Positions 7,208 through 63,686 of a stretch of 64,000 nt of DNA are shown here, piece by piece. Position 1 is the first letter of the stretch. The number at the start of each line of letters is the position of its first letter. The stretch is from an uncultured bacterium. Its GTDB lineage: Bacteria; Patescibacteriota; Minisyncoccia; Phycocordibacterales; UBA9973. The position numbers were made by a program, and so were the translations under genes. Below the pieces are notes generated by a model. That model did not search any database. It saw only the letters and a list, made by a program, of their open reading frames with translations, and had not been told where the DNA came from. The stretch is taken from NCBI GenBank assembly GCA_937895515.1, contig CALAYS010000157.1, forward strand, positions 12,462-76,461. The letters are read 5' to 3'.

Positions 7208-7238
7208 AACTTAGAATAAATTAATGTATAACTTCCCA

Positions 7239-7247
7239 ACTATAGCA
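7239..7247 (-). promoter_or_regulatory. extended -10 TGcTATAGT for ftsZ (31-nt gap to ATG 7207)
   Basis: Motif in the ftsA-ftsZ spacer. Confidence 0.45.
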
Positions 7248-7297
7248 GAACATAGCCATTATGCCAAATATGTTATACCCCTTTACTTTTTTAAAAT

Positions 7298-12674: not shown

Positions 12675-12688
12675 ATTAGTAATATATT

Positions 12689-13372: not shown

Positions 13373-13383
13373 TAGTTTTATAT

Positions 13384-13908
13384 ATGATTAAAGAAGCACA
13401 AATAGAATTTAAGAAAATTGAAGAATGGTTAACAAATGAATATGGTCAAATCCATTCTGGCCGAGCAACACCAATGGTACTTGATGGTTTGCAAGTTGAA
13501 CTATATGACATGATGCAACCAGTTAGAAATGTTGCAAGTATTTCAATTGAAGACCCAAAGACTATTCGAATCGCTCCTTGGGATAAAAATGCTGTTAAAG
13601 CCATTGAAAAAGCTTTAACTGATTCAAATCTTGGATTGGGGGTAGTTGCGGATTCTGATGGTATCAGATTGATTTTCCCAGCTCTTACTACAGAGCGCCG
13701 TCAACAAACTGTAAAAATTTTAGGCCAACTTCAAGAAGAAGCTCGAATTCGTGTACGCAAAGTCCGTGGTGATTTTATGGATGAACTAAAAGATTTACCC
13801 GAAGATGATCAGCGCCGAGGTAAAGATGACATTCAAAAATTAGTTGATGCTACAAATGCAAATCTAGAAGCAATCTTTAATAAAAAAGAAGTTGAAGTAA
13901 TGAATTAA
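13384..13908 (+). CDS. frr: ribosome recycling factor
   Basis: HSGRATPMVLD and RIAPWDKNAVKAIEKALTDSNLGL are typical of RRF. Confidence 0.92.
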   Translation: MIKEAQIEFKKIEEWLTNEYGQIHSGRATPMVLDGLQVELYDMMQPVRNVASISIEDPKTIRIAPWDKNAVKAIEKALTDSNLGLGVVADSDGIRLIFPALTTERRQQTVKILGQLQEEARIRVRKVRGDFMDELKDLPEDDQRRGKDDIQKLVDATNANLEAIFNKKEVEVMN

Positions 13909-13916
13909 TCCCAAAA

Positions 13917-14954
13917 ATGAATATCATAATTTTTATAGTAGTACTATTGGTTGTTGTAATTGTGCACGAGTACGGGCATTTTTTTGCTGCACGTAGTATG
14001 GGTATGCATGTTAGTGAATTTGCTTTTGGTTTTCCACCAAAACTTTTTGGGTTCAAGCGTGGGTCTACTCAGTATTCTATAAATTTAATTCCTCTTGGTG
14101 GATATGTTTTAATTGATGGACAAGATGGTGTTGACGATGATCCAAATAAAGACCATAGTAAAAGTTTTCATAATAAAACACGATTGGCTCAAATTTGGGT
14201 TTTGTTTGCAGGGCCATTAATGAATATTGTATTGGCGTATATTTTAATTGTTGGTTCATATTTAGGGGTTCATAAAATAGAGTCTAGTGTGGTTTCGCCA
14301 GTTGTGGTTTTAGAAGTTACCAAAGGCAGTCCTGCTGAAATTGCTGGAATAAAATCTGGAGATAGAATAATAAACATCACAACCCCAGAAGAAATTCAAA
14401 AAATAGTTTCAAATAGTGGTGAGAGTTTAACTTTACCAATATTGCGTAATAATGAACAAATTGATATTACTGTAATTCCAAATACTGATGTATCTGGAAA
14501 CAAAAAAATAGGTGTATCGCTTGGTACACTAGATTCTAAAAAATTATCTTTTGGAAAAGCCCTAATTCAATCAGCTAAAGATACTTATTTAATTACAAAA
14601 CAAACAATCAATGGATTTGGCCAAATGTTTGGTAAATTGTTTACTGGTCATAGTGTTAAAGATTCTCTTATGGGCCCAGTTGGTATAGCTAAACAGGTGG
14701 GGACTGTGGCTAATTTTGGATTTAGTTATTTATTAACATTTACTGCAATTATTTCTATAAATCTTGGAATACTAAATTTGTTGCCATTGCCAGCATTAGA
14801 TGGTGGACGAATATTTATAACTATTATTGAATCTATTCGTAAAAAAAGCTTTTCTAAAAAAGTCATCGGTACTATTCATACCATTGGATTTTTTACGCTT
14901 ATGGCTTTGCTGGTATTTATAACAATTCTTGATGTTGTAAAAATATTTAAATAA
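13917..14954 (+). CDS. rseP: site-2 (M50) zinc metalloprotease RseP-like
   Basis: HEYGHFFAAR (HExxH), central PDZ-like GSPAEIAGIKSGDRI, NLLPLPALDGGRI. Confidence 0.9.
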   Translation: MNIIIFIVVLLVVVIVHEYGHFFAARSMGMHVSEFAFGFPPKLFGFKRGSTQYSINLIPLGGYVLIDGQDGVDDDPNKDHSKSFHNKTRLAQIWVLFAGPLMNIVLAYILIVGSYLGVHKIESSVVSPVVVLEVTKGSPAEIAGIKSGDRIINITTPEEIQKIVSNSGESLTLPILRNNEQIDITVIPNTDVSGNKKIGVSLGTLDSKKLSFGKALIQSAKDTYLITKQTINGFGQMFGKLFTGHSVKDSLMGPVGIAKQVGTVANFGFSYLLTFTAIISINLGILNLLPLPALDGGRIFITIIESIRKKSFSKKVIGTIHTIGFFTLMALLVFITILDVVKIFK

Positions 14955-17482: not shown

Positions 17483-18541
17483 ATGCCTACCTTGAAAGAC
17501 AAACAAGTAAAAGGAAGTAAAATCTCTTTTAAACCTAAACAAGTTACAAAAAAACTTATTGGACATCTCCAAGACCGATCTCATGATGTGGTTGTTAGTC
17601 GTTTTGGACTAGGAACTGATTTAGAACATCGAACGCTAGAAGCTATCGGAGCCAAATATGGAATCACTCGTGAGCGCGTTCGCCAAATCGAACATGCGGC
17701 TCTTACTGCAATTCGTAAAAACTCAGCTTTCAAGGAAGAATCTGGTGTATTTTCTGAAATTAAATCTTTAATGAAAGATCTTGGTTCATTAATTGAAGAA
17801 GACGAATTACTAAATACAATTTCTAGTGATAAATCAACTCAAAACCATGTCCATTTTTATTTAGTTCTTGGAGATGAATTCAAAAAAATAAAAGAAGATG
17901 AACATTTTAAATCTCGTTGGCATATCGATGAAGAATTATCTGATCAAGTTCATGTTGCTCTTCATTCATTATACGCATCACTTGGTGATAATGAATTAGT
18001 AACAGAAGGTGAATTTATAACTAAATTTATTGAACACTGTAAAAAAGCAAATACTGAAGTTTTAAATGAAGAAATTGCAAAACGTTACCTTCGTACATCT
18101 AAAAGAATTGCAAAAAATCCACTAGGTGAATGGGGTAAATCAGGAACAAGTGGGGTTAAAACTCGTGGTATCAAAGATTATGCATATTTAATGATGCGCA
18201 AACATGGTTCTCCAATGCATTTTCGTGAAGTAGCAAAAGCAATTTCTGAAACATTTGGTAAGAAAACTCATACTGCAACATGTCATAATGAATTAATCAA
18301 AGACAATCGTTTTATATTAGTTGGTCGCGGTATTTATGCTTTAAAAGAATGGGGTTACAAACCAGGAATTGTTCGAGAAGTCATAAAAGATATTTTAAAA
18401 CAATACGGCCCAATGACTAAAGATGATATAGTTGATCATGTAATGAAAGAAAGATACTTGAAAAAGAATACAATACTTGTAAACCTGCAAAATGCTAAAT
18501 ACTTTAAAAAAGGTAAAAATAATTTATACACACTAGCTTAA
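17483..18541 (+). CDS. sigma-70 region-4-like HTH plus C-terminal HARE-HTH domain protein
   Basis: VVSRFGLG...TLEAIGAKYGITRERVRQIEHAAL matches sigma region 4. PMHFREVAKAI...DNRFILVGRGIYALKEWGY matches the HARE-HTH (RpoE/delta N-terminal) pattern. No sigma region 2 seen. Confidence 0.65.
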   Translation: MPTLKDKQVKGSKISFKPKQVTKKLIGHLQDRSHDVVVSRFGLGTDLEHRTLEAIGAKYGITRERVRQIEHAALTAIRKNSAFKEESGVFSEIKSLMKDLGSLIEEDELLNTISSDKSTQNHVHFYLVLGDEFKKIKEDEHFKSRWHIDEELSDQVHVALHSLYASLGDNELVTEGEFITKFIEHCKKANTEVLNEEIAKRYLRTSKRIAKNPLGEWGKSGTSGVKTRGIKDYAYLMMRKHGSPMHFREVAKAISETFGKKTHTATCHNELIKDNRFILVGRGIYALKEWGYKPGIVREVIKDILKQYGPMTKDDIVDHVMKERYLKKNTILVNLQNAKYFKKGKNNLYTLA

Positions 18542-19147: not shown

Positions 19148-20407
19148 ATGTTTGAATTTTACTTAGCTAATATAATTTTGGGGATAATAAAAGTTTTATT
19201 GGTTCTTTTACCAATTCCTTTGGCATATATTGCTTATATTATGTGGCACCACTATGTCAGTGAGGATTGGATTTCGGGTATTCAATGGCAGTTACTTGAA
19301 TTAAATATTCCTCAACAAGTTGTTAAGACTCCACTCGCAATGGAAACAATATTAGCAAATGCTTTTTATCATAAATCGGGTAAAGGTCTTTGGGAAGAAT
19401 ATTGGCAAGGTGCGGTTCATTTTTTCTTTTCACTTGAGATAGTCTCTATCGAGGGTCGTGTTCATTTTTATGTAAATACACCCAGCCGTGTTGTACCTTT
19501 AATTAAATCACAAATTTATGCGCAGTATCCTCAGGCTAAAGTCACAGAAGTTGAAGATTATGTTTGGTCAGTACCCAGAATTGGTAAAAAAACTGGTTGG
19601 TCTATGTGGGGTTGTGAATGGACACTAGAGAGAGAAGATCCTTACCCAATCAAAACCTATGTTGATTACGGGCTTGATAAAGTTGTTAAAGATTCTAACG
19701 AACAAGTTGACCCTATTGTTTCTTTGGTTGAATTTCTTTCTACTATTGGTCCAGGTGAACATATTTGGACACAGTTAATTATCCGTTGGTCTAAGAAAAC
19801 TTATGAAGGCGGTCATACTTTTTTAGAAGAATGTGACCGAGTTTTAGCTGATATTGTAAAACCTTATTCTAAACAAAATTTTGATGCTACAACAGGAGAA
19901 TTAACTTCTCTTGAAGTCCGTCCACCAGACTATTTAAAGGACGAAATTACTGCCATTAGTGACAAACAACACAAGCTTTGTTTTGATTGTGGAATGCGTA
20001 CAATTTATCTAGCTAAAGCCGAGGTTTTTGACCAACAGAAGCGCCGAGCTCTTCGTATGATGTACCGCCAATATAATAACCCTGTATTTAATTCTCTAAA
20101 AAGAATCAATGCGACTCAGTATGATAGTCCTTGGGAAGATCCTTTTGATATTGTTTTAACTGTTCGTAAAAATCGAATGCTTGACTGGTATAGATTCCGA
20201 GTATTTTTCCACCCGCCATGGCAATTTGCTTTTAAATACCCATTTCCTTTAAATTTATTCATTGTAACTGACCCACCACAAGTTTTTGTTTTGAATACTG
20301 AAGAAATAGCTACACTATTTCATTTCCCATCTACAATTATGGCTACACCGTCAATTAAACGTGTAGAAACAAGAACAAGTAAAGCTCCAACAAACCTACC
20401 AATATAA
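19148..20407 (+). CDS. hypothetical membrane-anchored protein (419 aa)
   Basis: N-terminal TM hairpin followed by LLELNIPQQVVKTPLAMETILANAF...FSLEIVSIEGRVHFYV...IYAQYPQAKV. From memory this resembles a CPR-wide uncharacterised family. Confidence 0.55.
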   Translation: MFEFYLANIILGIIKVLLVLLPIPLAYIAYIMWHHYVSEDWISGIQWQLLELNIPQQVVKTPLAMETILANAFYHKSGKGLWEEYWQGAVHFFFSLEIVSIEGRVHFYVNTPSRVVPLIKSQIYAQYPQAKVTEVEDYVWSVPRIGKKTGWSMWGCEWTLEREDPYPIKTYVDYGLDKVVKDSNEQVDPIVSLVEFLSTIGPGEHIWTQLIIRWSKKTYEGGHTFLEECDRVLADIVKPYSKQNFDATTGELTSLEVRPPDYLKDEITAISDKQHKLCFDCGMRTIYLAKAEVFDQQKRRALRMMYRQYNNPVFNSLKRINATQYDSPWEDPFDIVLTVRKNRMLDWYRFRVFFHPPWQFAFKYPFPLNLFIVTDPPQVFVLNTEEIATLFHFPSTIMATPSIKRVETRTSKAPTNLPI

Positions 20408-27273: not shown

Positions 27274-27816
27274 TTATTTCATTCCAAAAGTTTTATACAA
27301 TTCTTTTTCGGTTATTTCGTCTATTGTATTAGTTAAAAATATTATCATTTCATTGGTTAAACTCAAGTCTTTTTTAATATTGTAAAACATAAATTCAAAT
27401 GGATAAGGTGATATCCAAGCCGAATTTTTAAGACACACAAATCCTGCCTTTTTTAATAAATAACGCAGTGACTCACGCTCGGACTTTCTATTTTCTGGAA
27501 GATCCAGCATAACAATGCGCCAATTACCGTCCCAAGAAGTATTAACCATTGCGGTGTTACTTTCTAGATTAATGCTGTTTAGTTTTCTTTTACCTTGTTT
27601 AGTCAAACGAACATAATTATTTTGCGGGGATTTTATGTTTTCAATAAATCCAGCATCAGATAAAGATTTTAATGACCGAGTAATTGCATAGCGAGACTTG
27701 GTAGTTGTACTACTTTCTGGACTTAGTAGTCCAACTACCAAGTTATCAGATTCCACCGCCGGCTTGTCCGCCAGTATTTTAAGTATTTTTTTAGAATAAT
27801 CTGTATTCTTTGCCAT
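27274..27816 (-). CDS. PaaX-like winged-helix transcriptional regulator
   Basis: Start trimmed to ATG 27816 (MAKNTDYSKK). WDGNWRIVMLDLPE..R..R..LR..LKKAGF..L..S.W.SPYP matches the PaaX family C-terminal pattern. Divergent from dnaK. Confidence 0.65.
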   Translation of the reverse strand: MAKNTDYSKKILKILADKPAVESDNLVVGLLSPESSTTTKSRYAITRSLKSLSDAGFIENIKSPQNNYVRLTKQGKRKLNSINLESNTAMVNTSWDGNWRIVMLDLPENRKSERESLRYLLKKAGFVCLKNSAWISPYPFEFMFYNIKKDLSLTNEMIIFLTNTIDEITEKELYKTFGMK

Positions 27817-27875
27817 ATATTTATAATATAATATAGTTATCCACATTTTACAAGTTTTTTGCGGTCGCTAAATAC

Positions 27876-27904
27876 TTGTCAAAAAATAAGGGTTAGTATA
27901 TAAT
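27876..27904 (+). promoter_or_regulatory. dnaK promoter TTGTCA-N17-TATAAT (41 nt to ATG 27946)
   Basis: Near-consensus hexamers. The -35 overlaps the right arm of an inverted repeat (27846..27855 / 27874..27883). Confidence 0.6.
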
Positions 27905-27945: not shown

Positions 27946-29844
27946 ATGGGAAAAATCATAGGTATTGATCTAGGTACAACAAACAGTGCAGTAGCTATTA
28001 TAGAAGCTGGGCAACCAAAAATTATAGAGAATATAGAAGGTAACCGTACTACTCCAAGTATCGTAGCAATTAGTAAAACAGGTGAAAGACTTGTGGGATT
28101 ACTGGCTAAACGCCAAGCTGTAACAAACCCGGAAAATACTATTTATGGTATTAAACGGTTCATGGGGCATCTTTTCTCTGACCCAGAAATAATGAAAGGT
28201 AAAGATACTTTGTCATTTAAAACACAGGCCGGCCAAGATGGTGGAGTAATGGTTAAAATTGGTGAAGAATTTACTCGTCCAGAGGAAATCTCTGCAATGA
28301 TATTAGCTAAAATCAAAGCTGATGTTGAAGCTAAGCTTGGTGAAAAAGTTACCGAAGCTGTAATTACAGTTCCTGCGTATTTTAATGACGCCCAAAGAAA
28401 AGCTACTAAAGATGCCGGAGCTATTGCTGGTCTTGATGTTAAAAGAATTATCAATGAACCAACAGCAGCCGCACTTGCATATGGATTTAACAAAAAGAAA
28501 AATGAAAAAATCGCAGTTTATGACTTTGGAGGTGGAACATTTGATGTTTCTATTCTAGAAGTTGGTGATGATGTTATTGAAGTTAAATCAACCGATGGGG
28601 ATTCACACATGGGTGGTGAAGACATTGATCAAAAAATAATCCGCTTTATTGCTGATGAATTCAAAAAAGAAAGTGGTATTGATATAACAAAAGACACCCT
28701 AGCATTGCAACGCCTTAAAGAAGCTGCAGAGAAAGTTAAACACGAATTATCAACTACTATGGAGTCTGAAATAAACATTCCGTTTATTACATCTGACGCT
28801 AGTGGCCCAAAACATTTACTATTAAAGATGACTCGTGCAAAGCTGGAAGAACTAGCAAAAGAATACATTGACCGATCAATTGAAATTACAAAGCGTGCAA
28901 TCGAAGCTAGTCCTTTTAAGGCCTCAGAAATTGATGAAGTTATTCTTGTTGGTGGACAAACCCGTATGCCAGCAATTATCGAAGCAGTAAAAGCATTATT
29001 TGGTAAAGAACCAAACCGCACAATTAACCCAGATGAAGTTGTAGCATTAGGTGCTGCAGTCCAAGGTGGAGTTTTGCAAGGTGATGTTAGGGATGTATTA
29101 CTGCTAGATGTTATTCCACTATCACTAGGTATTGAAACATTAGGTGGTGTTGCTACAAAATTAATCGAGAAAAACACAACTATTCCTACAAACCGTTCGC
29201 AAGTATTTTCAACTGCAGGTGATAACCAAACCAGTGTTGAGATTCACATTACTCAAGGTGAACGCCAAATGGTGCAAGATAATAAATCACTTGGTAGATT
29301 TATTCTAGATGGTATTCCACCAGCTCCACGCGGTATGCCACAAATTGAAGTGACTTTTGATGTAGACGCTAACGGTATACTTTCTGTTAAAGCTAAAGAC
29401 AAAGCCAGTGGTAAAGAACAAAGTATTCGTATTGAAGCATCATCAGGTCTATCTGATGCTGATATTGAAAAGATGAAACAAGATGCTGAAAAATATGCCG
29501 AAGAAGACGCAAAGAAAAAAGAATTAGTTGATACTAAAAACACTGCCGAGATGCTACTGTACACTGCGGAAAAATCTCTAAAAGATGCAGAGGGTAAAGT
29601 TAGTACTGAAACAAAAGAATTGGTAGAAAAATCAATTGCTGATTTGAAAGCTGTTAAAGACGGTGATGACCAAAATGCAATTAAAGAAAAAACTGAAAGC
29701 CTAAGCAGTGCAATGAGTAAAATTGGTGAAGAAATGAATAAAGCTAACCAAGATGCTCCAAAAACAGAATCTGGAGCACAATCTGAAGCTAAAGAAGCAG
29801 AATTTACAGAGAAAAAAGAAGATGAGGGAGAAAAGAGCGCCTAA
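27946..29844 (+). CDS. dnaK: molecular chaperone DnaK
   Basis: [27 protein letters not shown]; 632 aa. Confidence 0.98.
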
Positions 29845-30373
29845 ATACAAGGTGCCAGCAAATATCGCGGAAAGTAATACAACTCTTCGCGATGTTTTGC
29901 GTAACCTTAAAGATCGTAAAAATGCTTGCATCGTAGTACTGGATGAACTAACCGATGTACACAATGTTGGGGCAATTATTCGGTCCAGTGTTGCGTCTGG
30001 TGTAGATGCAATAGTTATTGCTAAAAACAACCAAGCTCCAATTAATGACACTGTAATGCATACATCAGCCGGTACAGCTGGGATGATTCCAGTAATTGCT
30101 ATGAATGTTAATGATGCCATCCGCACAATGAAAGAAAATGGTTTTTGGGTGCATGGATTATTTATGAGTGGTGAGACTAATTTATGGAAATCAGATTTAA
30201 CTGGTAAAGTTGGTATAGTTGTAGGGTCCGAAGGTGAAGGCATCCATGCTATGACTATGAAATTGTGTGATTATGGTTTAGCTATACCTATGGATTCTAA
30301 AGTTGAATCACTAAATGCATCTGTTAGCGTAGCCGTGGCTCTTTATGAGCGTTTACGACAAATTAGTATATAA
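29822..30373 (+). CDS. SpoU/TrmH-family RNA 2'-O-methyltransferase
   Basis: Start set at ATG 29822, overlapping the dnaK end by 23 nt. [21 protein letters not shown]....[14 protein letters not shown]. Confidence 0.8.
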
Positions 30374-30374
30374 T
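30369..30374 (+). promoter_or_regulatory. TATAAT 6 nt before the dnaJ ATG 30381 (possible internal promoter)
   Basis: Hexamer overlaps the trmH-like stop codon; no TG extension. Confidence 0.4.
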
Positions 30375-30380
30375 AATTTT

Positions 30381-31457
30381 ATGGCAAAAGATTATTACGA
30401 AATATTAGGAATACAAAAAGGTGCATCGAAAGATGAGATAAAAAAAGCTTTTCATAAAATGGCACACAAATATCATCCGGATAAAAATGGTGGTGATGAT
30501 GCTAAATTTAAAGAAGCCAATGAAGCTTATCAAGTCCTAAGTGATGACACTAAACGCGTACAGTATGACCAATTTGGACATGCAGATTTTTCTGGTGCAG
30601 GAGCTGGCGGATATGGTGGGGCTAATTATGGTGGATTCTCTCAGCAAGGATTTGATTTTGATATGGGGGATTTGGGTGATATATTTGGTGACTTTTTTGG
30701 TGGTGGAATGGGCGGACGATCCCAATCACGCGTTAAAAAAGGCCGTGATTTAGCCACAGAAATAAATTTAACTTTTAATGAAGCAATTTTTGGAGCTGAA
30801 AAAATAATCCGTATCAAAAAACCAAGCAAATGTAATACTTGTAGTGGCACCGGTGGCGCCAAAGATGAACCATTAACTAATTGTTCCAAATGTAATGGAT
30901 CAGGACAAATTACAAATATTCGCCGAACAATGTTAGGAGCATTCCAAGAAACAATAGAATGTGACAATTGTTATGGAACAGGAAAAATAGTAAAAAAGAA
31001 ATGTAATACTTGTAGTGGGACTGGTGCTGAAAATAAAGAAATTGAATTAACTATAAACATTCCAGCAGGGTCCAGTAATGGTGATACCTTAAAACTAACC
31101 GGCGGCGGTGAATTTATTAAGAATGGTAAAATGGGTGATTTGTATTTAAACCTTATTGTTAAGAATAATCCCAATGTGGAACGATCTGGCGCAAATTTAG
31201 TTTATAATTTAAACATTACACCTACCGAAGCTATCTTAGGTGCTAAAAAAGACATTGAATTAATCGATGGGGTCATTACGGTAACAGTACCTGCTGGGTC
31301 AAATGATGGAGAGAATCTAATAATTAAATCACGTGGTATACCACACAGTGGTGGGTCTCGCGGTAGTGCAATACTTCGAATTAAAATAAATATCCCTAAA
31401 AAGCTTTCTAAAAAAGCTAAAGAGCTACTAGAAGAGCTCAAAAAAGAGGGAATATAA
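30381..31457 (+). CDS. dnaJ: molecular chaperone DnaJ
   Basis: Start at ATG 30381 ([11 protein letters not shown]). HPDKN J-domain, G/F-rich region, four CxxCxGxG zinc motifs. Confidence 0.96.
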
Positions 31458-56310: not shown

Positions 56311-57000
56311 ATGAAAGCTTTTATTCTGTGTGCTGGTAACGGCGAGCGATTAAAACCATTGACTGACAATACCCCAAAACCACTTATCTTAATAAAGGGT
56401 CGGCCTATTTTGTCTTATATATTCTCTTCCCTACCTGATGAAATTAACGAAGTTTTTATTGTTATAAAACAAAAGCATTTAGATTTATTTGAAAATTTTT
56501 TAAAGGAAAACCCAATAGATAAAAAAATTAAATTTTTATTTCAAGATGAAAAAACCAAAGGCACATACCATGCATTAATGGCAGGGTCCGAAGTTATTAA
56601 AAATGAAGATAAATTTTTAGTACTAAATGGTGATGATATTTTCCTAAAAGAAGATTTGGAAGAATTAATTAAAATAAATTCCCCGGCATATGGTCTTAGT
56701 TATAAAATCTTAAATGAAAGATACCGGACTTGTGATATAGACCAAGAAACAAAAACAATTACTAACTTTAGATTTATTAAAAAAGAAGAAAAAGAAAAAC
56801 CTGTAATTTGTTTTTCTGGAGCATATACACTAACATCAGATTTTTTAAATTATAAACCAGTTTATGTTGGTGATGAAGCCGGAATACCTCATACTCTATT
56901 TGGTGCAAACGTTAAAGTCTCTTATATAATTTTAAAGCATTGGCATCAAATAAATACACTTGATGAACTAACTAAAACCGAGCAAGAAATAAATTTTTAA
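56311..57000 (+). CDS. nucleotidyltransferase (NTP_transferase family)
   Basis: AFILCAGNGERLKPLTDNTPKPL; LNGDD. Confidence 0.75.
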   Translation: MKAFILCAGNGERLKPLTDNTPKPLILIKGRPILSYIFSSLPDEINEVFIVIKQKHLDLFENFLKENPIDKKIKFLFQDEKTKGTYHALMAGSEVIKNEDKFLVLNGDDIFLKEDLEELIKINSPAYGLSYKILNERYRTCDIDQETKTITNFRFIKKEEKEKPVICFSGAYTLTSDFLNYKPVYVGDEAGIPHTLFGANVKVSYIILKHWHQINTLDELTKTEQEINF

Positions 57001-58694
57001 ATTATTTCTTGTTGATAACACTTTTCACAATAAACTATTTCTGGCCTATTAGGGGCATATGAAGTAAAAATACTATCATTACATTTGGCGCAGTTTCTAT
57101 TGTAAAAAAATGGCATATTAAGTCTAGACATTCTCCTGTTATGTCTACAGTCTGTACAATTTCTAGGGATAGGTAAATTTATTTTTTTTAATAAATCAAA
57201 TTCACCTGTACCAATTTTATAAGGTTTACTACATTCCACACAAGACAATATCTGATCAATTATTGAAATATCTATATCATTAATACTATCTGGAATATCT
57301 TGAGAATATAATGTTGGTGTAATATTGTTTATATTTTTTTCTGTATACTTAAATCCTTCATTTAAAATTTCTTCTTTATTTAAATCAAAATATTGAATAG
57401 CGTAAGATTCATTATAAGAAAAAGGTGACAAATCATAAGGTAAAAATTCACCATATTTAAATACTCTACCCTTTTTATCTATATAAGGATTTTTTTCAAG
57501 ATCTTCTATTATTTTTTTGCGAAGAATAAAATAATCTTCTTTAGAATATTGTTTATTAAGTATACAGTATTCTTTTTTCCTTAAATTAACACAACCAAAA
57601 CAATTAGATACATTAACACAATACATTGCATATTCTACATTACTACAGTTATTCCAGGACCCGGCACAATATTTTGAACCATTTACCCCTTCACCTACTG
57701 TAATTGAATCAATGCAGTAAGATATATTGTGCCCCCATTCGGAAATATCATAACATTCTTTTGTTGTACCTAATGTTACGAATTGGCAATATTTAGAATC
57801 CTCTAAAGATATTGCTTGGTAACAGTTTTTTGAATTTTTAGAATTATAAATATATTCACCAGAAGAATCAAAATTCAATCTTTCGTAAGAAAATCTTTTA
57901 GGAAAAGATAGCCAAAATTTATAAATATTTTTTTGTATTTCTTTATGCGTTGTATATTTATCTAATCCAAGATTATTAAACCTGTTTTGCCATTCTTCTT
58001 TTGATAGTTGTTCATTAAACCAAACATTATTTCTATTTCTTAAATTTACACAACCAAAACAATTTGTACAAGCGTGGCAGTCTTTAGAATACCAAACATT
58101 TAAAGATTCAGGACAATTATCGGAAAAGAATCTTCGACTACCATCACCCGCTATACATTCATATGATAATTCACTATTATTAGTCATAGTCATTTCAGCG
58201 CATTCTCTGGAATGGACAATAGTTGAACTATTATAAACATTTTCACAATAATCAGCATTAAAAATTAAATGACAATTTTTTAAAGCTCCAGCATGGTTAA
58301 CATATTCACTATTAACTAATGACTGATAGTCAACAATCAAATTTTGAAATGGGGTTTTATTTCTAAGCTCTAAATATTGCTCAAAGAAATTTCGGTTAGG
58401 GTCATAATCTATACCATAGTCTGTTCCTTCCCATCCATCGCTCCACCAACATTTACCACAATAAACTTTTAGCCCACCTTCCTCGGAAAAAATTGATAAT
58501 ATATTTTTATCACAAAGCCCACATTTTCTTTTATATAAATTGCGCTCATTACGAAACATTAATCGACGCTGTAGTCTACAATCCGGACAAAATGTCGGTG
58601 CCGGGACACCTATTTTATCGTAAAAATCAAAATCCTCTGGTTCAATAATAAAGTTTTGCTTACAGTTCTGGCAGTTACGATTTTCTATTTCCAT
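56997..58694 (-). CDS. large multi-zinc-ribbon Cys-rich protein (565 aa, 35 Cys)
   Basis: Paired CxxC...CxxC modules at both termini (NCQNC..FCPDCR..KCGLC..YCGKC and SCVEC..NCTDCR..NCAKC..YCEKC). Two internal modules end in NCFGCVNLR. Confidence 0.75.
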   Translation of the reverse strand: MEIENRNCQNCKQNFIIEPEDFDFYDKIGVPAPTFCPDCRLQRRLMFRNERNLYKRKCGLCDKNILSIFSEEGGLKVYCGKCWWSDGWEGTDYGIDYDPNRNFFEQYLELRNKTPFQNLIVDYQSLVNSEYVNHAGALKNCHLIFNADYCENVYNSSTIVHSRECAEMTMTNNSELSYECIAGDGSRRFFSDNCPESLNVWYSKDCHACTNCFGCVNLRNRNNVWFNEQLSKEEWQNRFNNLGLDKYTTHKEIQKNIYKFWLSFPKRFSYERLNFDSSGEYIYNSKNSKNCYQAISLEDSKYCQFVTLGTTKECYDISEWGHNISYCIDSITVGEGVNGSKYCAGSWNNCSNVEYAMYCVNVSNCFGCVNLRKKEYCILNKQYSKEDYFILRKKIIEDLEKNPYIDKKGRVFKYGEFLPYDLSPFSYNESYAIQYFDLNKEEILNEGFKYTEKNINNITPTLYSQDIPDSINDIDISIIDQILSCVECSKPYKIGTGEFDLLKKINLPIPRNCTDCRHNRRMSRLNMPFFYNRNCAKCNDSIFTSYAPNRPEIVYCEKCYQQEII

Positions 58695-58727: not shown

Positions 58728-60194
58728 CTAGATCAAAGGTTCACTTTCAACTTTAGGAGCAGAAGCTGAAGATGCATCATTATGTTGTCCGGGTTTGTTT
58801 GAAATTGCGGCTTTTTCTTGGGCAGATCTTACAATTAGGTTTTCATCTTCTTCCATTATGCGTTTAACTTCCTCTACTGGTACCGCAAATTGATTCCGTG
58901 AAGCTTCGATAATTCTTTCTCTATATGATGGGTGTACCGCGGGCAAGACTTTTAATGTCTCCGCGGAGAATGGGTCATATGATTCCCCATCAATTGTCAT
59001 TTTTATATAAAATTCACCAACACCCAGGTTAATCATGTCTTTAACATCAAAAATTGGAGCATATTCGGGTTTAAGTTTAACAGCATCTTCCCCACCAATA
59101 CGAAATGTAATCATGGATCCCACATTACCCATTACAGCTTGCTGAACTTTGGGTAATAATTGGTTAACATACTGGTGAGCAACAGTTAAATTAAGACCAT
59201 ATTTACGAGCCTCGGATAAAATATTTTCAAAAGTATCAGTAACCAAGTTTTGGAACTCGTCCACATATAGGTAAAAATCATTTCGGTCTTCTTTAGCTAA
59301 TTTAGCTCGAGACATACCAGCTTGTTTGATTTTAGTAATAAACATCGCTCCAAAAAATGACGCATTCTCTTCCCCAATTTTACCTTTGGAAAGATTAATC
59401 AAAATTATTTTTTGATCATTCATTAATTTTTCCAAATCAACTTTGTTACCTTTTTGCCCAAAAATATGTCTTAGCATTGGGTCTGATAGAAATTGTCCTA
59501 ATTTATTAACCAATGGAATAATAGCATCAGTATCAAATTTTTCTGACCAGTCGGCAAATTCAATTGCCCAGAATCTTTTTACCATATCATCTTCAATATA
59601 TTCCACAACCTTTTGACGATAGTTACGGTCAGTTAGCATTGAAATCATCCCTCGCATTGTGGCGTATGGATAGTCCAGCAGCGCCAATGTTGTAAAACGA
59701 AAAACGTGTTCCAACCGGGGTGTCCAGTTAGACCCGAATTGTTTCTTTAAGACTTCAATTAATCCTTGGGTTAATTGGTGTTTAAATGTTGGGTCAACAT
59801 TAGCTAATGGATTAAACGATACTGGGTAATCATCATCTGACGGATCAATAATACAAACATCATTAATTCTATCTTCTGGTACAAATTCTAAAATATCATC
59901 AATTAATTCACCATGGGGGTCAATAACACAAACACCATAGCCATAAGCTATGTCTTGACGAATCATTAATTCTTGCAGTTTAGATTTACCAACACCAGAT
60001 TTACCAACAATATATAAATGGCGGCGACGGTCAATTCTTTTAATTCCAAATACATATTTTTTTTCTTCAAGTGCAGCAACATAGTTTGTTCGTCCAATAA
60101 AACAAACCTCGCGTGGGTCAATATCACCCAATACTGGCAGTTCTGGTGGTGGTGGAGCATATTTAATTATTTGTATTTTATTTGAATTTCCCAT
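58728..60194 (-). CDS. VirD4/TraD-like (T4SS coupling-protein-type) P-loop NTPase without a TM anchor
   Basis: Walker A GKSGVGKS, IDPHGEL, Walker B FYLYVDEFQN, AHQY. No hydrophobic N-terminus. Confidence 0.75.
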   Translation of the reverse strand: MGNSNKIQIIKYAPPPPELPVLGDIDPREVCFIGRTNYVAALEEKKYVFGIKRIDRRRHLYIVGKSGVGKSKLQELMIRQDIAYGYGVCVIDPHGELIDDILEFVPEDRINDVCIIDPSDDDYPVSFNPLANVDPTFKHQLTQGLIEVLKKQFGSNWTPRLEHVFRFTTLALLDYPYATMRGMISMLTDRNYRQKVVEYIEDDMVKRFWAIEFADWSEKFDTDAIIPLVNKLGQFLSDPMLRHIFGQKGNKVDLEKLMNDQKIILINLSKGKIGEENASFFGAMFITKIKQAGMSRAKLAKEDRNDFYLYVDEFQNLVTDTFENILSEARKYGLNLTVAHQYVNQLLPKVQQAVMGNVGSMITFRIGGEDAVKLKPEYAPIFDVKDMINLGVGEFYIKMTIDGESYDPFSAETLKVLPAVHPSYRERIIEASRNQFAVPVEEVKRIMEEDENLIVRSAQEKAAISNKPGQHNDASSASAPKVESEPLI

Positions 60195-60196
60195 AA

Positions 60197-61333
60197 TTAA
60201 TTATCAAGCTCGTGTGATTCTCCTGTTAATACTGCAATGCGGGCTATTTCCATAGCGGCATCAATATTTCCAATATCAAAAGTTGCTTTATGCATTTTAG
60301 TCCAAACAGATTCATGCATTAAAATACTATTAACTTCAGATATAAATAAATGTGGCAATGCGTTGACTTCTTCCATTATAATACCTGCTCCAATTTCAGC
60401 ATAATGAATAGCATTTTTATGTTGATGGTTACCATTAGAATGAGTTATAGGTATAACTATTGCTGGTATGTGCCAAGTTGCAATTTCAAACAAGGTTGAA
60501 CCAGCTCGTGACACCACAAGAGACGAAATAGCTGCAGCATGCCTTGTATCAACTGCATTTAAAAATGGTTTTATAATATAACGATTTTTATAAGGATGAT
60601 TTTCTAGAATTACGCTGGATTCATTCTTAACATTAATTTCATTATTTACTCCACATTGATGGATTATTTGATATGTTTTTAAAAGTTCACTTAATGATTC
60701 CATTACAAGATCATTTATTTTTTCAGCACCTTGGGACCCAGCATATACAAAAATTGTTGGTATATGTTGATCTAAATTATAGTATTCTGCACCATCAGCA
60801 GTTGTGGGTAAATGCATTAATTCATTACGGATTGGTAAACCAACAACAGCTGTTTTTGTTTTGTCAAAAAATTCTTCAGCATCTTTATAAGAAAGAGCAA
60901 TATTTTTAGCAAACTTCCCTGCCCACATATTAACTCGTCCAGGATGAGTATCTGACTCATGAATAACTACTGGAATATTTAACATTCTTGCAGCAAAAAG
61001 AGCCGGAAATGACCCATGTCCACCCTTGGCAATAACTACATCTGGATATAAGAAAAATAATTTAAATAAAGCTTGCACTAAACCAATTGCAACTTTGAAC
61101 ATATCCGTAAAATTTTTAAACGAAGGATATATCCGCAATTTACCAGTGGAGACGGATATAAATTTTATTTCATTTTCAGTCAAAGCCTTTTGATCATAAG
61201 GATCACTAGACATATAATAAAGTTCTACTTTCCCAAGCTTGCGCTCACGAGACAAAGTATGTATTCTCTCTGCTATTGCTATTAGTGGATAAAAATGTCC
61301 ACCTGATCCGCCACCAGTTAAAAGTATTTTCAT
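60197..61333 (-). CDS. murG: undecaprenyldiphospho-muramoylpentapeptide beta-N-acetylglucosaminyltransferase MurG
   Basis: Start trimmed to ATG 61333 (MKILLTGGGSGGHFYPLIAIAE). HESD and RAGSTLFE motifs. Confidence 0.9.
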   Translation of the reverse strand: MKILLTGGGSGGHFYPLIAIAERIHTLSRERKLGKVELYYMSSDPYDQKALTENEIKFISVSTGKLRIYPSFKNFTDMFKVAIGLVQALFKLFFLYPDVVIAKGGHGSFPALFAARMLNIPVVIHESDTHPGRVNMWAGKFAKNIALSYKDAEEFFDKTKTAVVGLPIRNELMHLPTTADGAEYYNLDQHIPTIFVYAGSQGAEKINDLVMESLSELLKTYQIIHQCGVNNEINVKNESSVILENHPYKNRYIIKPFLNAVDTRHAAAISSLVVSRAGSTLFEIATWHIPAIVIPITHSNGNHQHKNAIHYAEIGAGIIMEEVNALPHLFISEVNSILMHESVWTKMHKATFDIGNIDAAMEIARIAVLTGESHELDN

Positions 61334-61334
61334 A

Positions 61335-63686
61335 TTACAAACTTGCCTGTTTAGACAGGTCATCATTATCTTTTTCGAATAATTTTTTTAATACATCTTC
61401 CGGAACTTCCTTTTTAGGTGTTCTTTTGCTGTATTTTTCCGGAGGCTTGGGAACCTCTAATTCGATCTTATCTTCATAGAATTTTTCAACTTTTGTTACT
61501 TCTTCTTTTACAATTTCATCCTTCTTTTCATTAACTATATTAGGTGTGTTATTTATATTTTCAGTTTTTGTCTGATTTACAATAGGAGCTGTTTTAACAT
61601 TAGAAACATTTGCAACATTATTCACTAAATTTTTTAGCATCTGTTGTGATTCATATGTTGCGGCTTTGGGAGTAACAGATGCCACAGGCTTTGGAACTTC
61701 AATTTTATCTTCTATAACCGGAGTATTAACTGTTTGTTTAAGCTCGGCAACTTTGGGATGAATTGTTATTTTTTGTGGATCAGACTTTATTGGTGTTACA
61801 GGTTTAGGCGGATTTGTAGATGATGTTGGATTTGCTTGTGTAATTGTACCTAATAAATCCTTTAAAGTCGTAAAGCCTTCTTTGTCTTTTTCATCTTTAA
61901 TTGGAACCATAGCTGGTTTAGATTGAGTTAGAGTTTGGTATTTATTGTTTAAGTTATTATTTGAATTCAACGTAGGTTTACTATTTTGTACAAATGTTTT
62001 TGGTGTTGGCGTATTTGAAAATGTTTTGGGTGTTTCTTTTTTATAATCTTTTTGTATAAAAGATGGTTTGTTATTTGTAATAATTGTTGGTTGATATTCA
62101 ATACCCATTGCCGCTAATGCTTCGGCGGGTTTAGGCCCATCATTTAAATTTTTATCATAAAATCCTTTGGCTGGTTTTAGTTCCCCTACTTTTATTTTAC
62201 TTAAACAATCTTTACAATAAATAGGTTTACCGGCTTTGGGTTCAAAAGGTACAACAATTTCCTTGTTACAGTTAACACATACAGCAGGATACATTTTATT
62301 TGTTGGAGTATTACTATAAGGATTTGAATTCGTATTTTCTTTATTAGCAATGATTGTTCCACCAGCAGTTGAACTCCAAGAGTTAATTGCCGCTTCAACA
62401 ACATTCTGCGGGCGACAATAAATTTCACGAGATCTTTTAATTGCAGCTTCGGTACTGTCTTCTAATCCATCGTTAATTCTTATTGGTGGCAAAGTATTTG
62501 CTGAAAAAGGCCGGCTAGTAATACCATCAATCATTAATTTTAAATAAATCTCATAGTTTGGAAGACCAATAAAATCTTCAGGAATAAATTCTGGAGCAAA
62601 TTCTTTTTCTAAAACCTTGGCATCTTCTGCTCCGATACGAAAAATTATCATTGACCCCACGTTACCAAAAACTGCATCTTTTAAATCACCCCCATCTTTG
62701 GTTTCAATTTGAGCAGTATATTGATGAGCCAGTGTTAAACAAAGACGGTATTTACGAGCTTCAGACAAAATACTTGCAAAAGATTCTGTCGCAAAGTTTT
62801 GGAATTCATCAACATATAAATAAAAATCGCGTCTCTCTTCTTCTGGAATACGAACACGCTCCATGGCCGCTAGTTGCAATTTAGTAATAATCATTGCACC
62901 AAGAAGAGCCGAGTTATCTTCACCAATACGGCCTTTGGATACATTAACAAGGAAAATTTTTCCTTCATTCATTAAATTAAAAACATCAATAGTACTTTCT
63001 TGTTGACCAACGATATTTCGAATAATCGATGATGAAAGAAATTGCCCAACTTTATTTTGAATCGGAGCAATGGCTTCGTTACGGAATTGTTCTTTCCATT
63101 GTTCGTATTCATGAACCCAAAAAGCCTTAACCATTGGGTCTTTTAAATTATTAATTATGACTTGGCGATAGTCTTTATCAACTAACATCCGAGTAATACC
63201 CAGTAGTGTTGTATTAGGAGTATCCAGCAGTGCCAAAATAGTATTGTTCATAATGTATTCCATACGAGATGACCATACATTAGCCCAAATTTTTGTAAAA
63301 ATACCCATCAGCCCCGAAGCCACTAAATGTTTGTATTTAGAATCGCGTAATTCTAGTGGATTAAAACCAATACAATATTCTGTATCAGCTGGGTTAAAAT
63401 AAACAACGTCGTTTAGTCTATGTTCAGGAATGACTTTTAATACAGTCTCAACTAATTCTCCATGAGGATCAACAAGACACAAACCTTCACCATTCCAAAT
63501 ATTTTGAATAACAAGGTTTGAAATAAGCGCTGATTTACCAGTACCTGATTTACCTAATATATATAAATGTTGGCGACGATCCTTACGCTTGATACCAAAA
63601 ATTTCATTCCCACCACGAAAATTCGTACGAGCGAAATACGTAATATCACGATTCATTGGAATGTCCGGCATGTGCGGATTTTGCAT
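61335..63686 (-). CDS. VirD4/TraD-like P-loop NTPase with a C-terminal zinc ribbon and a long low-complexity tail (783 aa)
   Basis: Paralog of 58728..60194: GKSGTGKS, VDPHGEL, FYLYVDEFQN, AHQY. CVNC-x20-CKDC at residues 470-494. N/T/P/K-rich tail. Confidence 0.75.
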   Translation of the reverse strand: MQNPHMPDIPMNRDITYFARTNFRGGNEIFGIKRKDRRQHLYILGKSGTGKSALISNLVIQNIWNGEGLCLVDPHGELVETVLKVIPEHRLNDVVYFNPADTEYCIGFNPLELRDSKYKHLVASGLMGIFTKIWANVWSSRMEYIMNNTILALLDTPNTTLLGITRMLVDKDYRQVIINNLKDPMVKAFWVHEYEQWKEQFRNEAIAPIQNKVGQFLSSSIIRNIVGQQESTIDVFNLMNEGKIFLVNVSKGRIGEDNSALLGAMIITKLQLAAMERVRIPEEERRDFYLYVDEFQNFATESFASILSEARKYRLCLTLAHQYTAQIETKDGGDLKDAVFGNVGSMIIFRIGAEDAKVLEKEFAPEFIPEDFIGLPNYEIYLKLMIDGITSRPFSANTLPPIRINDGLEDSTEAAIKRSREIYCRPQNVVEAAINSWSSTAGGTIIANKENTNSNPYSNTPTNKMYPAVCVNCNKEIVVPFEPKAGKPIYCKDCLSKIKVGELKPAKGFYDKNLNDGPKPAEALAAMGIEYQPTIITNNKPSFIQKDYKKETPKTFSNTPTPKTFVQNSKPTLNSNNNLNNKYQTLTQSKPAMVPIKDEKDKEGFTTLKDLLGTITQANPTSSTNPPKPVTPIKSDPQKITIHPKVAELKQTVNTPVIEDKIEVPKPVASVTPKAATYESQQMLKNLVNNVANVSNVKTAPIVNQTKTENINNTPNIVNEKKDEIVKEEVTKVEKFYEDKIELEVPKPPEKYSKRTPKKEVPEDVLKKLFEKDNDDLSKQASL

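What the first reader, a model, noticed from the sequence alone, without database searches (positions are those of the whole stretch)
56997..58694. 565-aa protein with 35 cysteines: duplicated double zinc-ribbon ends around two internal Cys-rich modules
Seen in sequence: N-terminal residues 8-82 have four CxxC pairs (NCQNC...FCPDCR...KCGLC...YCGKC). The same arrangement recurs at the C-terminus (SCVEC...NCTDCR...NCAKC...YCEKC). The centre contains two related modules, each ending ...NCFGCVNLR(N/K), with regularly spaced single Cys (NC, YC, EC) suggestive of a repetitive beta-solenoid-like fold. I cannot assign a function by eye. It is the last gene of the VirD4-like/murG operon, and the 783-aa ATPase also carries a zinc ribbon, so Zn-ribbon-mediated interaction within the operon is conceivable.
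Basis: seen in the sequence. Interest (0 to 1): 0.6.

Follow-up and report, generated by a model that had tools for sequence, protein, structure and literature searches.

The report
Zinc-capped solenoid protein beside orphan ATPases
This 565-residue, 35-cysteine protein is a real member of a very large, unstudied protein family of ultra-small Patescibacteria (zinc fingers at both ends of a duplicated beta-solenoid), and it is encoded next to two soluble "coupling-protein-like" motor ATPases whose job in these bacteria is still unknown.

Summary
It has 35 Cys (6.2% against a window mean of 0.9%). Four CxxC pairs at each end form homologous modules (BLASTP E 4e-17). The duplicated core (E 1e-13) ends twice in NCFGCVNLR.

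With a 132-sequence alignment, AlphaFold2 gives a confident model (pLDDT 88.7). It shows two double zinc-finger caps (zf_Tbcl plus CxxC-x17-CxxC) around two short-coil beta-solenoids. Nothing in the PDB resembles the core.

The family is large (more than 4,800 clusters at 50% identity), carries no annotation, and was seen only in Patescibacteria. It is accessory: 23 of 401 sampled genomes have it, whereas the neighbouring VirD4-like ATPase is in 398 of 401. Family genes sit within three genes of such an ATPase, on the same strand, far more often than chance allows. The long ATPase always carries the same CxxC-x17-CxxC finger.

The ends are constant between paralog subfamilies, while the solenoid faces are subfamily-specific. 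My best reading (about 0.35) is a rigid zinc-stabilised adaptor or scaffold that docks on the ATPase pair. The function is not shown.

This scan has met the family on other DNA many times. I found no paper describing it.

The parts
56997..58694 (-). Whole gene (called ZS565 here): 565 aa, 35 Cys, no signal peptide or TM segment
   Evidence: The maximum Kyte-Doolittle 19-residue window is 0.88.
58443..58694 (-). N-terminal double zinc-finger cap (residues 1-84). Finger 1 is C8/C11...C36/C39 (zf_Tbcl type, followed by an Arg-lined helix R40, R43, R44, R48, R51). Finger 2 is C58/C61-x17-C79/C82 (CxxC-x17-CxxC).
   Evidence: Pfam zf_Tbcl at residues 6-44, E 0.0037, below the cut-off. Cys are 90-98% conserved. 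pLDDT is 92-95. BFVD matches phage 'putative zinc-ribbon domain' proteins with probability 1.0.
58335..58442 (-). Conserved aromatic/acidic linker (residues 85-120, WWSDxWD...YDPxRNFFEQ)
   Evidence: W83, W88, Y97, F104 and Q106 are invariant in A1. pLDDT is 94-98.
58005..58334 (-). Solenoid module 1 (residues 121-230), ending in C206-x2-C209-x2-C212-x2-C215 (nucleotides 58050-58079), a possible fifth metal site
   Evidence: Internal duplication E 1e-13. C209/C212/C215 are 98-99% conserved. Strands at 198-201, 210-213 and 222-225 are 12 residues apart.
57546..57899 (-). Solenoid module 2 (residues 266-383), ending NCFGCVNLRKKEYCILNKQY
   Evidence: C368 is 98% and C377 86% conserved.
57270..57545 (-). 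Helix plus small conserved domain (residues 384-475; NPYxDxKGRxxKYGEFxPYDLSPFxYNES)
   Evidence: P403, Y404, D406, R410, Y414, G415, P419, Y420, Y427 and N428 are invariant in A1. pLDDT is 94-99.
57000..57269 (-). C-terminal double zinc-finger cap (residues 476-565), homologous to the N-terminal cap. It ends 6 residues after the last Cys, so there is no disordered tail.
   Evidence: BLASTP against the N module, E 4e-17. Pfam zf_Tbcl_2 at residues 531-563, E 0.0096, below the cut-off; 22 of 25 homologues hit zf_Tbcl_2, best E 3.3e-9.
58728..60194 (-). ATPase-short (488 aa): soluble VirD4/TraD/HerA-like ATPase with intact Walker A (GKSGVGKS) and Walker B (YVDEFQ) and no zinc finger. It lies directly upstream of ZS565 with a 33-nt gap.
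   Evidence: None of 32 ATPases shorter than 600 aa in related loci has a finger.
60197..61366 (-). murG-like glycosyltransferase (389 aa) between the two ATPases. This position is peculiar to this genome.
   Evidence: Pfam Glyco_transf_28 N- and C-terminal domains; TIGR01133 scores 209 bits, below the cut-off of 250. Same-family relatives have nothing between the two ATPases.
61335..63686 (-). ATPase-long (783 aa): VirD4-like ATPase domain, a CxxC-x17-CxxC finger (residues 464-498, nucleotides 62193-62297), then a roughly 285-residue low-complexity tail
   Evidence: All 19 ATPases longer than 600 aa in related loci carry the finger (20 finger-bearing genes in all, one cut at a contig end).

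Best explanation
ZS565 is a cytoplasmic, zinc-stabilised rigid scaffold or adaptor protein. Each end is a homologous two-finger cap: a zf_Tbcl treble-clef-type finger followed by a CxxC-x17-CxxC finger, each most likely holding one Zn(Cys)4. Between the caps lie two short-coil beta-solenoid modules that arose by duplication. The first ends in a nearly invariant CxxCxxCxxC coil that may hold a fifth metal. I infer that the constant caps dock the protein on a common partner. The most likely partner is the soluble VirD4-like ATPase pair encoded beside it, whose long member carries the same finger type. The subfamily-specific solenoid faces would then give each paralog its own client (protein or nucleic acid). 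Shown here: the architecture, the duplications, the conservation pattern, the family size and the gene linkage. Inferred: metal binding, docking on the ATPases, and the adaptor role. The molecular process served is unknown.
For: Architecture and a confident model: (pLDDT 88.7, pTM 0.89). The finger type is shared with ATPase-long: (all 19 ATPases over 600 aa carry CSxCGKxTxVPFxPxxGRPVYCKxC; none of the 32 shorter than 600 aa does). CxxC-x17-CxxC domains bind zinc experimentally in Methanosarcina mazei small proteins (PMC12704099). Linkage: 34 of 80 loci from different species, and 16 of 30 loci with full 10-kb flanks, hold a VirD4-like ATPase, against about 8% expected. In 32 of 34 the nearest ATPase is within 3 genes, and in 33 of 34 it is on the same strand. 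Arrays abut ATPases in G360, G082, G199 and G165. In this genome the ATPase pair has left the dnaK-dnaJ position it holds in same-family relatives, yet it still has ZS565 directly downstream and two more paralogs upstream. Constant ends and specific faces: solenoid segments 121-195 and 266-345 are as conserved within each of two orthologous subfamilies (0.61-0.73) as the rest, but share the same consensus at only 10-16% of positions, against 31-43% in the caps. Orthologous subfamilies are old: each paralog has its own 50-63% identical orthologues. Cytoplasmic: no hydrophobic segment.
Against: There is no direct evidence of contact with the ATPases, and no multimer prediction was possible. The ATPase, finger included, is present in 398 of 401 genomes while the family is in 23 of 401, so the motor works without it. 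About half of the full-flank loci have no ATPase within 10 kb, and some members are singletons in unrelated contexts (L003 between divIC and prfB-ftsEX). No ATPase-ZS fusion was seen in the 8 long ATPases examined, although those loci were clipped and some reading frames ran off the locus ends. Copy number varies from 1 to about 17 or more per genome, which also fits cargo or other roles.
Confidence: 0.35

Rival explanations
1. The ZS proteins are substrates (cargo) of the coupling-protein-like ATPases. They would be recognised and unfolded or translocated, for example exported towards the host cell, as type IV coupling proteins do with effectors.
For: Variable-number arrays next to T4CP-like ATPases resemble effector arrays. 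The ATPases keep T4CP-type Pfam matches (TrwB_AAD_bind, TraG-D_C). In other classes the orthologous ATPase follows SecD, SecF and a TM protein.
Against: The ATPases have no TM domain, and in the literature only 148 of 5,713 CPR T4CP homologues lie near virB4 (10.1101/2025.01.22.634366). ZS565 ends 6 residues after its last zinc-binding Cys, so it has no unstructured C-terminal signal. It is a multi-zinc rigid fold, which would be hard to thread (inference). Orthologues are slowly evolving, 50-60% identical across orders, unlike arms-race effectors.
Confidence: 0.15
2. The ZS proteins are two-ended nucleic-acid binders: rigid rods that bridge or measure DNA or RNA. They would work with FtsK/HerA/VirD4-superfamily translocases in chromosome handling or DNA uptake.
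For: Each first finger is followed by a helix with 5 nearly invariant Arg on one face (R40, R43, R44, R48, R51; R517, R521, R524, R533). That is the usual nucleic-acid-reading element of treble-clef fingers (established knowledge). One source names a homologue 'Zn ribbon nucleic-acid-binding protein'. Neighbours in some loci include ComEC and an extracellular lamin-tail-domain protein after ATPase-long.
Against: The caps are only weakly basic (mean net charge +3 and +2) and the whole protein is acidic (pI 5.65). There is no hit to any characterised DNA- or RNA-binding family. The source's name is an automatic label.
Confidence: 0.15
3. The ZS proteins are thiol/zinc-based stress proteins: redox-switched holdases of the Hsp33 kind, or a metal or cysteine buffer, tied to the Hsp70 system.
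For: In many species the ATPase-ZS cassette lies between dnaK and dnaJ (DnaK in 11 and DnaJ in 12 of 80 loci). Further recurrent neighbours are CutA1 (10 loci), CysS (11) and an Nramp metal transporter (5). CysS also lies next to the upstream paralogs in this genome.
Against: The dnaK link is limited to some clades and is broken in this very genome: dnaK and dnaJ lie about 27 kb away on the other strand. The palindrome upstream of dnaK has no second copy in the window. Strong conservation of non-Cys aromatic and polar residues and the subfamily-specific faces argue for specific binding rather than buffering. Most core Cys are not conserved.
Confidence: 0.12
4. The ZS proteins polymerise head-to-tail through their homologous caps into a cytoskeletal filament of the bactofilin beta-solenoid kind, and the ATPases remodel it.
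For: It is a rigid solenoid with homologous ends. It sits next to murG here and next to divIC or ftsEX in L003.
Against: Copy number varies from 1 to about 17 or more and the family is absent from 94% of sampled genomes. There is no similarity to bactofilin or any filament former. The murG position is not conserved.
Confidence: 0.05

Closest known systems
CxxC-x17-CxxC domain proteins (Pfam PF23477 zf_Tbcl_2; NCBIfam TIGR04272), e.g. the small zinc proteins A00184 and A01980 of Methanosarcina mazei (PMC12704099)
   Same: The spacing and flanking motif ((F/Y)xPxxxxP(V/I)YCxxC) match the second finger of both caps (58-82, 535-559) and the ATPase-long finger. Zinc binding was shown by ICP-MS for the archaeal proteins.
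   Different: Those are single-domain proteins of about 50-60 residues and unknown function. Here the finger is one of four, within a 565-residue solenoid protein. P0001's own HMM scores are below the Pfam cut-offs.
zf_Tbcl (Pfam PF13451), 'putative zinc-ribbon domain' proteins of bacteria and phages
   Same: The first finger of each cap (CxxC-x24-CxxCR with FxI...DxxFYxK) matches in sequence (E 0.0037) and in fold (BFVD A0A8S5MPS8, E 3.7e-3, probability 1.0; A0A8S5P745, 44 columns at rmsd 0.8 A).
   Different: The phage and bacterial proteins are short and stand alone, and no function is known for them either.
Type IV coupling proteins with dedicated adaptors (VirD4/TrwB/TraD; Legionella DotL with DotM, DotN, IcmSW)
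   Same: An ATPase of the T4CP family is encoded beside accessory proteins. DotN is likewise a zinc-binding partner (from my own knowledge, not tested here).
   Different: The ATPases here lack the membrane anchor and, per the literature, are rarely near virB4. They are near-universal in the phylum. The ZS proteins are unrelated in sequence and fold to known adaptors.
Narrow cysteine-containing beta-helices (Tenebrio antifreeze protein) and left-handed beta-helix (hexapeptide-repeat) proteins such as gamma-carbonic anhydrase and LpxA
   Same: Short coils of about 12 residues with inward Cys. All the best Foldseek PDB hits are beta-helix proteins.
   Different: No hit is significant (best E 0.05; TM normalised to the query at most 0.10). 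Most ladder Cys are not conserved. The protein is cytoplasmic, so disulfides are unlikely. There is no hexapeptide-repeat Pfam match.
ClpX N-terminal zinc-binding domain (a treble-clef finger on a hexameric motor that docks adaptors and substrates)
   Same: This is a functional analogy only: a zinc finger appended to a ring ATPase and used for partner docking.
   Different: It belongs to a different ATPase superfamily and a different finger family. The comparison is recalled from knowledge and was not tested here.

Membership tests
zf_Tbcl_2 / TIGR04272 (CxxC-x17-CxxC domain) | Two CxxC knuckles exactly 17 residues apart | tested here: met
   C58-x2-C61-x17-C79-x2-C82 and C535-x2-C538-x17-C556-x2-C559. 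These Cys are 90-95% conserved.
zf_Tbcl_2 / TIGR04272 (CxxC-x17-CxxC domain) | Profile score at or above the curated cut-off | tested here: inconclusive
   P0001 scores 16.0 bits against a cut-off of 27 and has no NCBIfam hit. However, 22 of 25 close homologues match, best E 3.3e-9, and the neighbouring ATPase finger scores 47.8 bits.
zf_Tbcl_2 / TIGR04272 (CxxC-x17-CxxC domain) | Binds one zinc ion through the four Cys | not testable with these tools
   Shown only for M. mazei small proteins (PMC12704099).
zf_Tbcl (PF13451) | Profile match over the CxxC...CxxCR module | tested here: inconclusive
   17.6 bits against a cut-off of 24, residues 6-44. 11 of 25 homologues match. The fold matches phage zinc-ribbon proteins with probability 1.0.
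Substrate or adaptor of a type IV secretion coupling protein | Encoded next to a T4CP-family ATPase | tested here: met
Substrate or adaptor of a type IV secretion coupling protein | The T4CP is membrane-anchored and works with a VirB4-containing channel | tested here: not met
   Both ATPases begin directly with the soluble ATPase domain. I did not search this genome for VirB4. The literature reports 148 of 5,713 CPR T4CP homologues near virB4.
Substrate or adaptor of a type IV secretion coupling protein | Unstructured C-terminal translocation signal (for substrates) | tested here: not met
   The protein ends ...YCEKCYQQEII, inside the last finger's helix, with pLDDT about 90.
Hexapeptide-repeat left-handed beta-helix / TmAFP-type Cys-ladder beta-helix | Significant fold or profile match; a regular conserved repeat | tested here: not met
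   Foldseek best E 0.05, TM to the query at most 0.10. No Pfam Hexapep or AFP hit for P0001. Most ladder Cys are 7-45% conserved.
DnaJ-type CXXCXGXG zinc domain | Four CxxCxGxG repeats; Pfam PF00684 match | tested here: not met
   Only one CxxCxGC per module (209-215, 365-368). No PF00684 hit even at E 5.
Ferredoxin-type [4Fe-4S] site | CxxCxxCxxxCP motif or a Fer4 profile match | tested here: not met
   The motif is CxxCxxCxxC without CP, and there is no Fer4 hit. An Fe-S cluster is not excluded without metal analysis.
Known anti-phage defence systems (PADLOC) | Profile match to a defence protein | tested here: not met
   No hit for P0001. The ATPases give only weak generic mad8/HerA matches.

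The most novel reading that the evidence does not exclude
The ZS proteins are client-specific adaptors of a Patescibacteria-wide cytosolic machine built from two exapted type IV coupling-protein ATPases. This machine handles proteins (or nucleic acids) in concert with Hsp70 or Sec, and is a cellular system with no described counterpart. In some Paceibacteria-type lineages it has been elaborated by expanding a zinc-capped solenoid adaptor family.
Probability: 0.2. Interest if true: 0.8.

Novelty: new variant of a known kind. Interest (0 to 1): 0.55.

Why it matters
Patescibacteria (CPR) make up a large share of bacterial diversity, and most of their lineage-specific proteins have no known role. 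Nearly every genome sampled here carries soluble homologues of conjugation coupling ATPases (398 of 401). A 2025 preprint counts 5,713 of them, mostly far from any type IV secretion genes, and suggests they were exapted for another function. The zinc-capped solenoid family is the most frequent neighbour of those ATPases where it exists, and it shares a finger type with them. That gives a concrete, testable candidate partner. Pull-downs, metal analysis and cryo-EM on recombinant proteins could reveal what the orphan motors do. The solenoid core also appears to be a fold arrangement with no solved relative.

Tried and rejected
1. Enzyme or known-family assignment. Pfam, NCBIfam, PADLOC, PDB sequence profiles and Foldseek against PDB and BFVD gave nothing beyond the zinc fingers.

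2. A first AlphaFold2 run with 25 sequences left the solenoids unmodelled (pLDDT 71). It was replaced by a 132-sequence run.

3. A Foldseek hit to a chain of the Methanosarcina ribosome-SriA/SriB structure suggested a ribosome link for CxxC-x17-CxxC proteins. The paper shows Sri proteins are CBS-domain proteins, so the lead is dead.

4. 'The ATPase pair replaces ClpB in the dnaK operon': rejected, because Hsp100 (ClpB/ClpC-type) genes are present in 97 of 101 genomes, this one included.

5. Co-regulation with dnaK in this genome: the 33-nt palindromic site upstream of dnaK (27849-27881) has no second copy in the window, and the inverted-repeat core has no similar copy elsewhere in the assembly.

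6. Rosetta-stone fusion of ATPase and ZS: none in 8 long ATPases. Their extra length is Cys-free low-complexity sequence. The fetched loci were clipped, so this test is weak.

7. DNA-mimic idea: the solenoid is only mildly acidic.

8. The promoter and terminator scan found nothing above shuffled expectation.

10. Literature searches found no paper on the family.
Full report
OBSERVATION

The ORF at 56997-58694 is real, but it lies on the minus strand. It encodes 565 residues with 35 cysteines. That is 6.2%, seven times the mean of the window's 51 ORFs of at least 150 aa, and the highest of them.

The four CxxC pairs at residues 8-82 recur at 485-559. The two end modules align with BLASTP E 4e-17 at 34% identity. 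The two core halves align with E 1e-13, and each ends in NCFGCVNLR(N/K). No hydrophobic segment exists (maximum 19-residue Kyte-Doolittle window 0.88), so the protein is cytoplasmic.

One qualification concerns the 'regularly spaced single Cys'. Most of them are not conserved across the family. The conserved ones are the 16 terminal Cys, C141, C206, C209/C212/C215 (98-99%), C291, C368 and C377.

STRUCTURE

A 25-sequence alignment gave a poor model of the core. A 132-sequence alignment was then built from two orthologous subfamilies plus paralogs from other loci. It gave pLDDT 88.7 and pTM 0.89. The model has these parts:

- Two caps, each with two small beta-hairpin/helix zinc fingers.
- Two modules of short strands about 12 residues apart, which is a solenoid pattern.
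- Helices after each module.
- A small, very confident domain at residues 384-475.

Foldseek against the PDB gives no significant match. The best, insignificant hits are all beta-helix proteins: gamma-carbonic anhydrase, LpxA/LpxD, GlmU and PglD (E at least 0.05, TM to the query at most 0.10). Against viral models, only the cap matches, to phage 'putative zinc-ribbon domain' proteins with probability 1.0.

The first finger of each cap is of the zf_Tbcl type. The second has the exact CxxC-x17-CxxC spacing of zf_Tbcl_2/TIGR04272. That domain was shown by ICP-MS to bind zinc in Methanosarcina mazei small proteins (PMC12704099).

With a 12-residue coil, C206, C209, C212 and C215 occupy every third position of a single coil. 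From the periodicity I infer, without measurement, that they point into the solenoid axis and may hold a fifth metal ion.

THE FAMILY

More than 6,770 proteins in the 90%-identity cluster set match, nearly all about 565 residues long and labelled 'hypothetical'. They come from Paceibacteria-type Patescibacteria: Nomura-, Staskawicz-, Giovannoni-, Jorgensen-, Yanofsky- and Sungbacteria and others. A profile finds 4,850 clusters at 50% identity, 2,062 of them at E 1e-30 or better.

The window's assembly holds five paralogs. Two of them lie just beyond the window end, on the same strand. Each paralog has its own orthologues at 50-63% identity, so these are old orthologous subfamilies under purifying selection.

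Comparing two subfamilies shows a clear pattern. The caps and module ends keep the same consensus at 31-43% of positions. The N-terminal parts of both solenoids are equally conserved within each subfamily but share only 10-16% of consensus residues. In short, the ends are constant and the faces are subfamily-specific.

DISTRIBUTION AGAINST THE ATPASE

I searched 401 genomes drawn evenly across the phylum. The family profile was found in 23 (21 of 320 genera). The first 500 residues of the neighbouring 783-aa ATPase were found in 398, at 50-72% identity and usually in two or more copies. The first-look filter may miss very divergent family members.

The ATPase is therefore a core gene of the phylum, and the zinc-solenoid family is a lineage-restricted accessory. 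All 19 'long' ATPases (over 600 aa) in related loci carry the CxxC-x17-CxxC finger (20 finger-bearing genes in all, one cut at a contig end), and none of the 32 shorter than 600 aa does. The finger is also present in genomes that lack the family. Both ATPases here have intact Walker A and B motifs.

GENE CONTEXT

The local string on the minus strand is: ZS581, ZS574, NUDIX, rplU, ATPase-long (783 aa), murG-like, ATPase-short (488 aa), ZS565. CysS and a CorA-like gene diverge upstream.

Across 80 loci from different species there are 215 family genes. The commonest neighbour by far is the VirD4-like ATPase:

- 34 of 80 loci hold one, and 16 of 30 loci with full 10-kb flanks do, against about 8% expected by chance.
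- In 32 of 34 the nearest ATPase is within three genes.
- In 33 of 34 it is on the same strand.
- 15 loci hold both the long and the short ATPase.

These loci are phylogenetically related, so the nominal p-value of 1e-10 overstates the significance. Complete or near-complete genomes show the same pattern, with arrays abutting ATPases in G360, G082, G199 and G165 but not in G024.

Two orders recur:

- (A) PaaX-like regulator (divergent), DnaK, ATPase-long, ZS genes, ATPase-short, DnaJ.
- (B) ATPase-short, CutA1, a cytidylyltransferase-like gene, ZS genes, ATPase-long, then a lamin-tail-domain membrane protein.

Other neighbours are DnaJ (12 loci), DnaK (11), CysS (11), CutA1 (10) and Nramp (5).

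Same-family relatives of this organism (G284, G256) have DnaK, a 328-aa protein, ATPase-long, ATPase-short and DnaJ, with no ZS gene in between. Other classes have SecD, SecF, a sigma70-r4/HARE-HTH protein, a TM protein and then the ATPase.

In the present genome dnaK (27946-29844) and dnaJ (30345-31457) are adjacent to each other. The ATPase pair has moved about 27 kb away to the other strand, has murG between its members, and still keeps ZS genes on both sides. So the ATPase-ZS linkage survives here where the ATPase-Hsp70 linkage did not. The palindrome upstream of dnaK has no second copy near the ZS operon.

INTERPRETATION

The evidence best fits a rigid, zinc-stabilised adaptor or scaffold. 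Its constant caps would dock on a shared partner, and its solenoid faces would confer paralog-specific binding. The shared partner is most plausibly the ATPase pair, given the linkage and the shared finger type.

I put this at about 0.35, because no contact is shown and the motor exists without the family in most genomes. The rivals are:

- Cargo of the ATPases (0.15). Against it: no C-terminal signal, a rigid multi-zinc fold, slow evolution, and ATPases without a membrane anchor.
- A two-ended nucleic-acid binder (0.15). For it: the Arg-lined helices after the first fingers. Against it: the weak charge.
- A thiol/zinc stress protein linked to Hsp70 (0.12). For it: the dnaK, CutA, CysS and Nramp neighbours. 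Against it: the link is broken here, and the surface conservation looks specific.
- A filament former (0.05).

Four ideas were tested and dropped: that the ATPases stand in for ClpB, a ribosome link through the CxxC-x17-CxxC proteins, membership of a known defence system, and ATPase-ZS fusions (this last test was weak).

COMPARISON WITH WHAT IS KNOWN, AND NOVELTY

The fingers belong to two described but functionally uncharacterised domain families. The core has no Pfam or NCBIfam model and no solved relative. No paper in the searchable library describes the family.

The orphan T4CP homologues of CPR bacteria have been counted, and exaptation has been suggested, by 10.1101/2025.01.22.634366. 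That preprint does not mention these partners.

Earlier agents of this scan have reported the same family and the same ATPase and dnaK context on many other genomes. My results were obtained independently and agree with theirs.

- The phylum-wide contrast of 398 against 23 of 401 genomes.
- The strict rule that the long ATPase has the finger and the short one does not.
- The pattern of constant ends and subfamily-specific faces.
- A confident full-length model.
- The observation that in this genome the ATPase-ZS linkage outlived the dnaK linkage.

As a single gene this is a new member of an undescribed family. As a system it is a new variant on 'ring ATPase plus zinc-finger partner', and the function is open.

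LIMITS

- No model coordinates were available, and no multimer prediction was possible.
- The assembly is a 244-contig bin with 9% contamination.
- The neighbourhood loci are not phylogenetically independent.

Noticed in passing
window 27849-27881 (upstream of dnaK at 27946-29844; PaaX/MarR-like regulator at 27274-27846 on the minus strand): An 18-nt-arm inverted repeat, TACAAGT...ACTTGTCA, overlaps a promoter-like TTGTCA/TATAAT between a divergent PaaX-like regulator and dnaK. It is probably the operator of a non-HrcA heat-shock repressor. It is unique in the window.
   Followed up: partly
window 17483-18541 and 19148-20407 (+): A sigma70-region-4/HARE-HTH protein and a 419-aa single-TM protein ('u449'). 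In other Patescibacteria classes these lie directly upstream of the VirD4-like ATPase, after SecD and SecF. They are present here, but no ATPase follows them.
   Followed up: partly
window 60197-61366 (-): A murG-like gene sits between the two ATPases and overlaps the end of the long one by 32 nt. It scores below the NCBIfam MurG cut-off (209 against 250 bits). It is absent from this position in same-family genomes.
   Followed up: partly
window 56997-57000: The ZS565 gene and the convergent sugar-phosphate nucleotidyltransferase gene (56311-57000, +) overlap by 4 nt at their stop codons, so there is no room for a terminator between them.
   Followed up: no
window 9921-11591 (-): A 556-aa ORF with 2.5% Cys and no Pfam family. 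It is weakly similar (23% identity, E 6e-16) to a 648-aa protein at the syntenic place in a same-family genome (L103).
   Followed up: no
L103 (G256:C19) 6619-8394: The only family member of a same-family 0.7-Mb genome is just 34% identical to ZS565. It sits in a different, ATPase-free context that is syntenic with window 11658-14954. So the paralogs of this genome are not simple vertical orthologues of it.
   Followed up: partly
own assembly, contig C128 positions 39-939: A motif of about 36 nt (ACAAGTTTTAGAGCTAC...GATATTACTTGT) recurs at 180-nt spacing. It looks like a tandem coding repeat or a repeat array. It lies outside the window.
   Followed up: no
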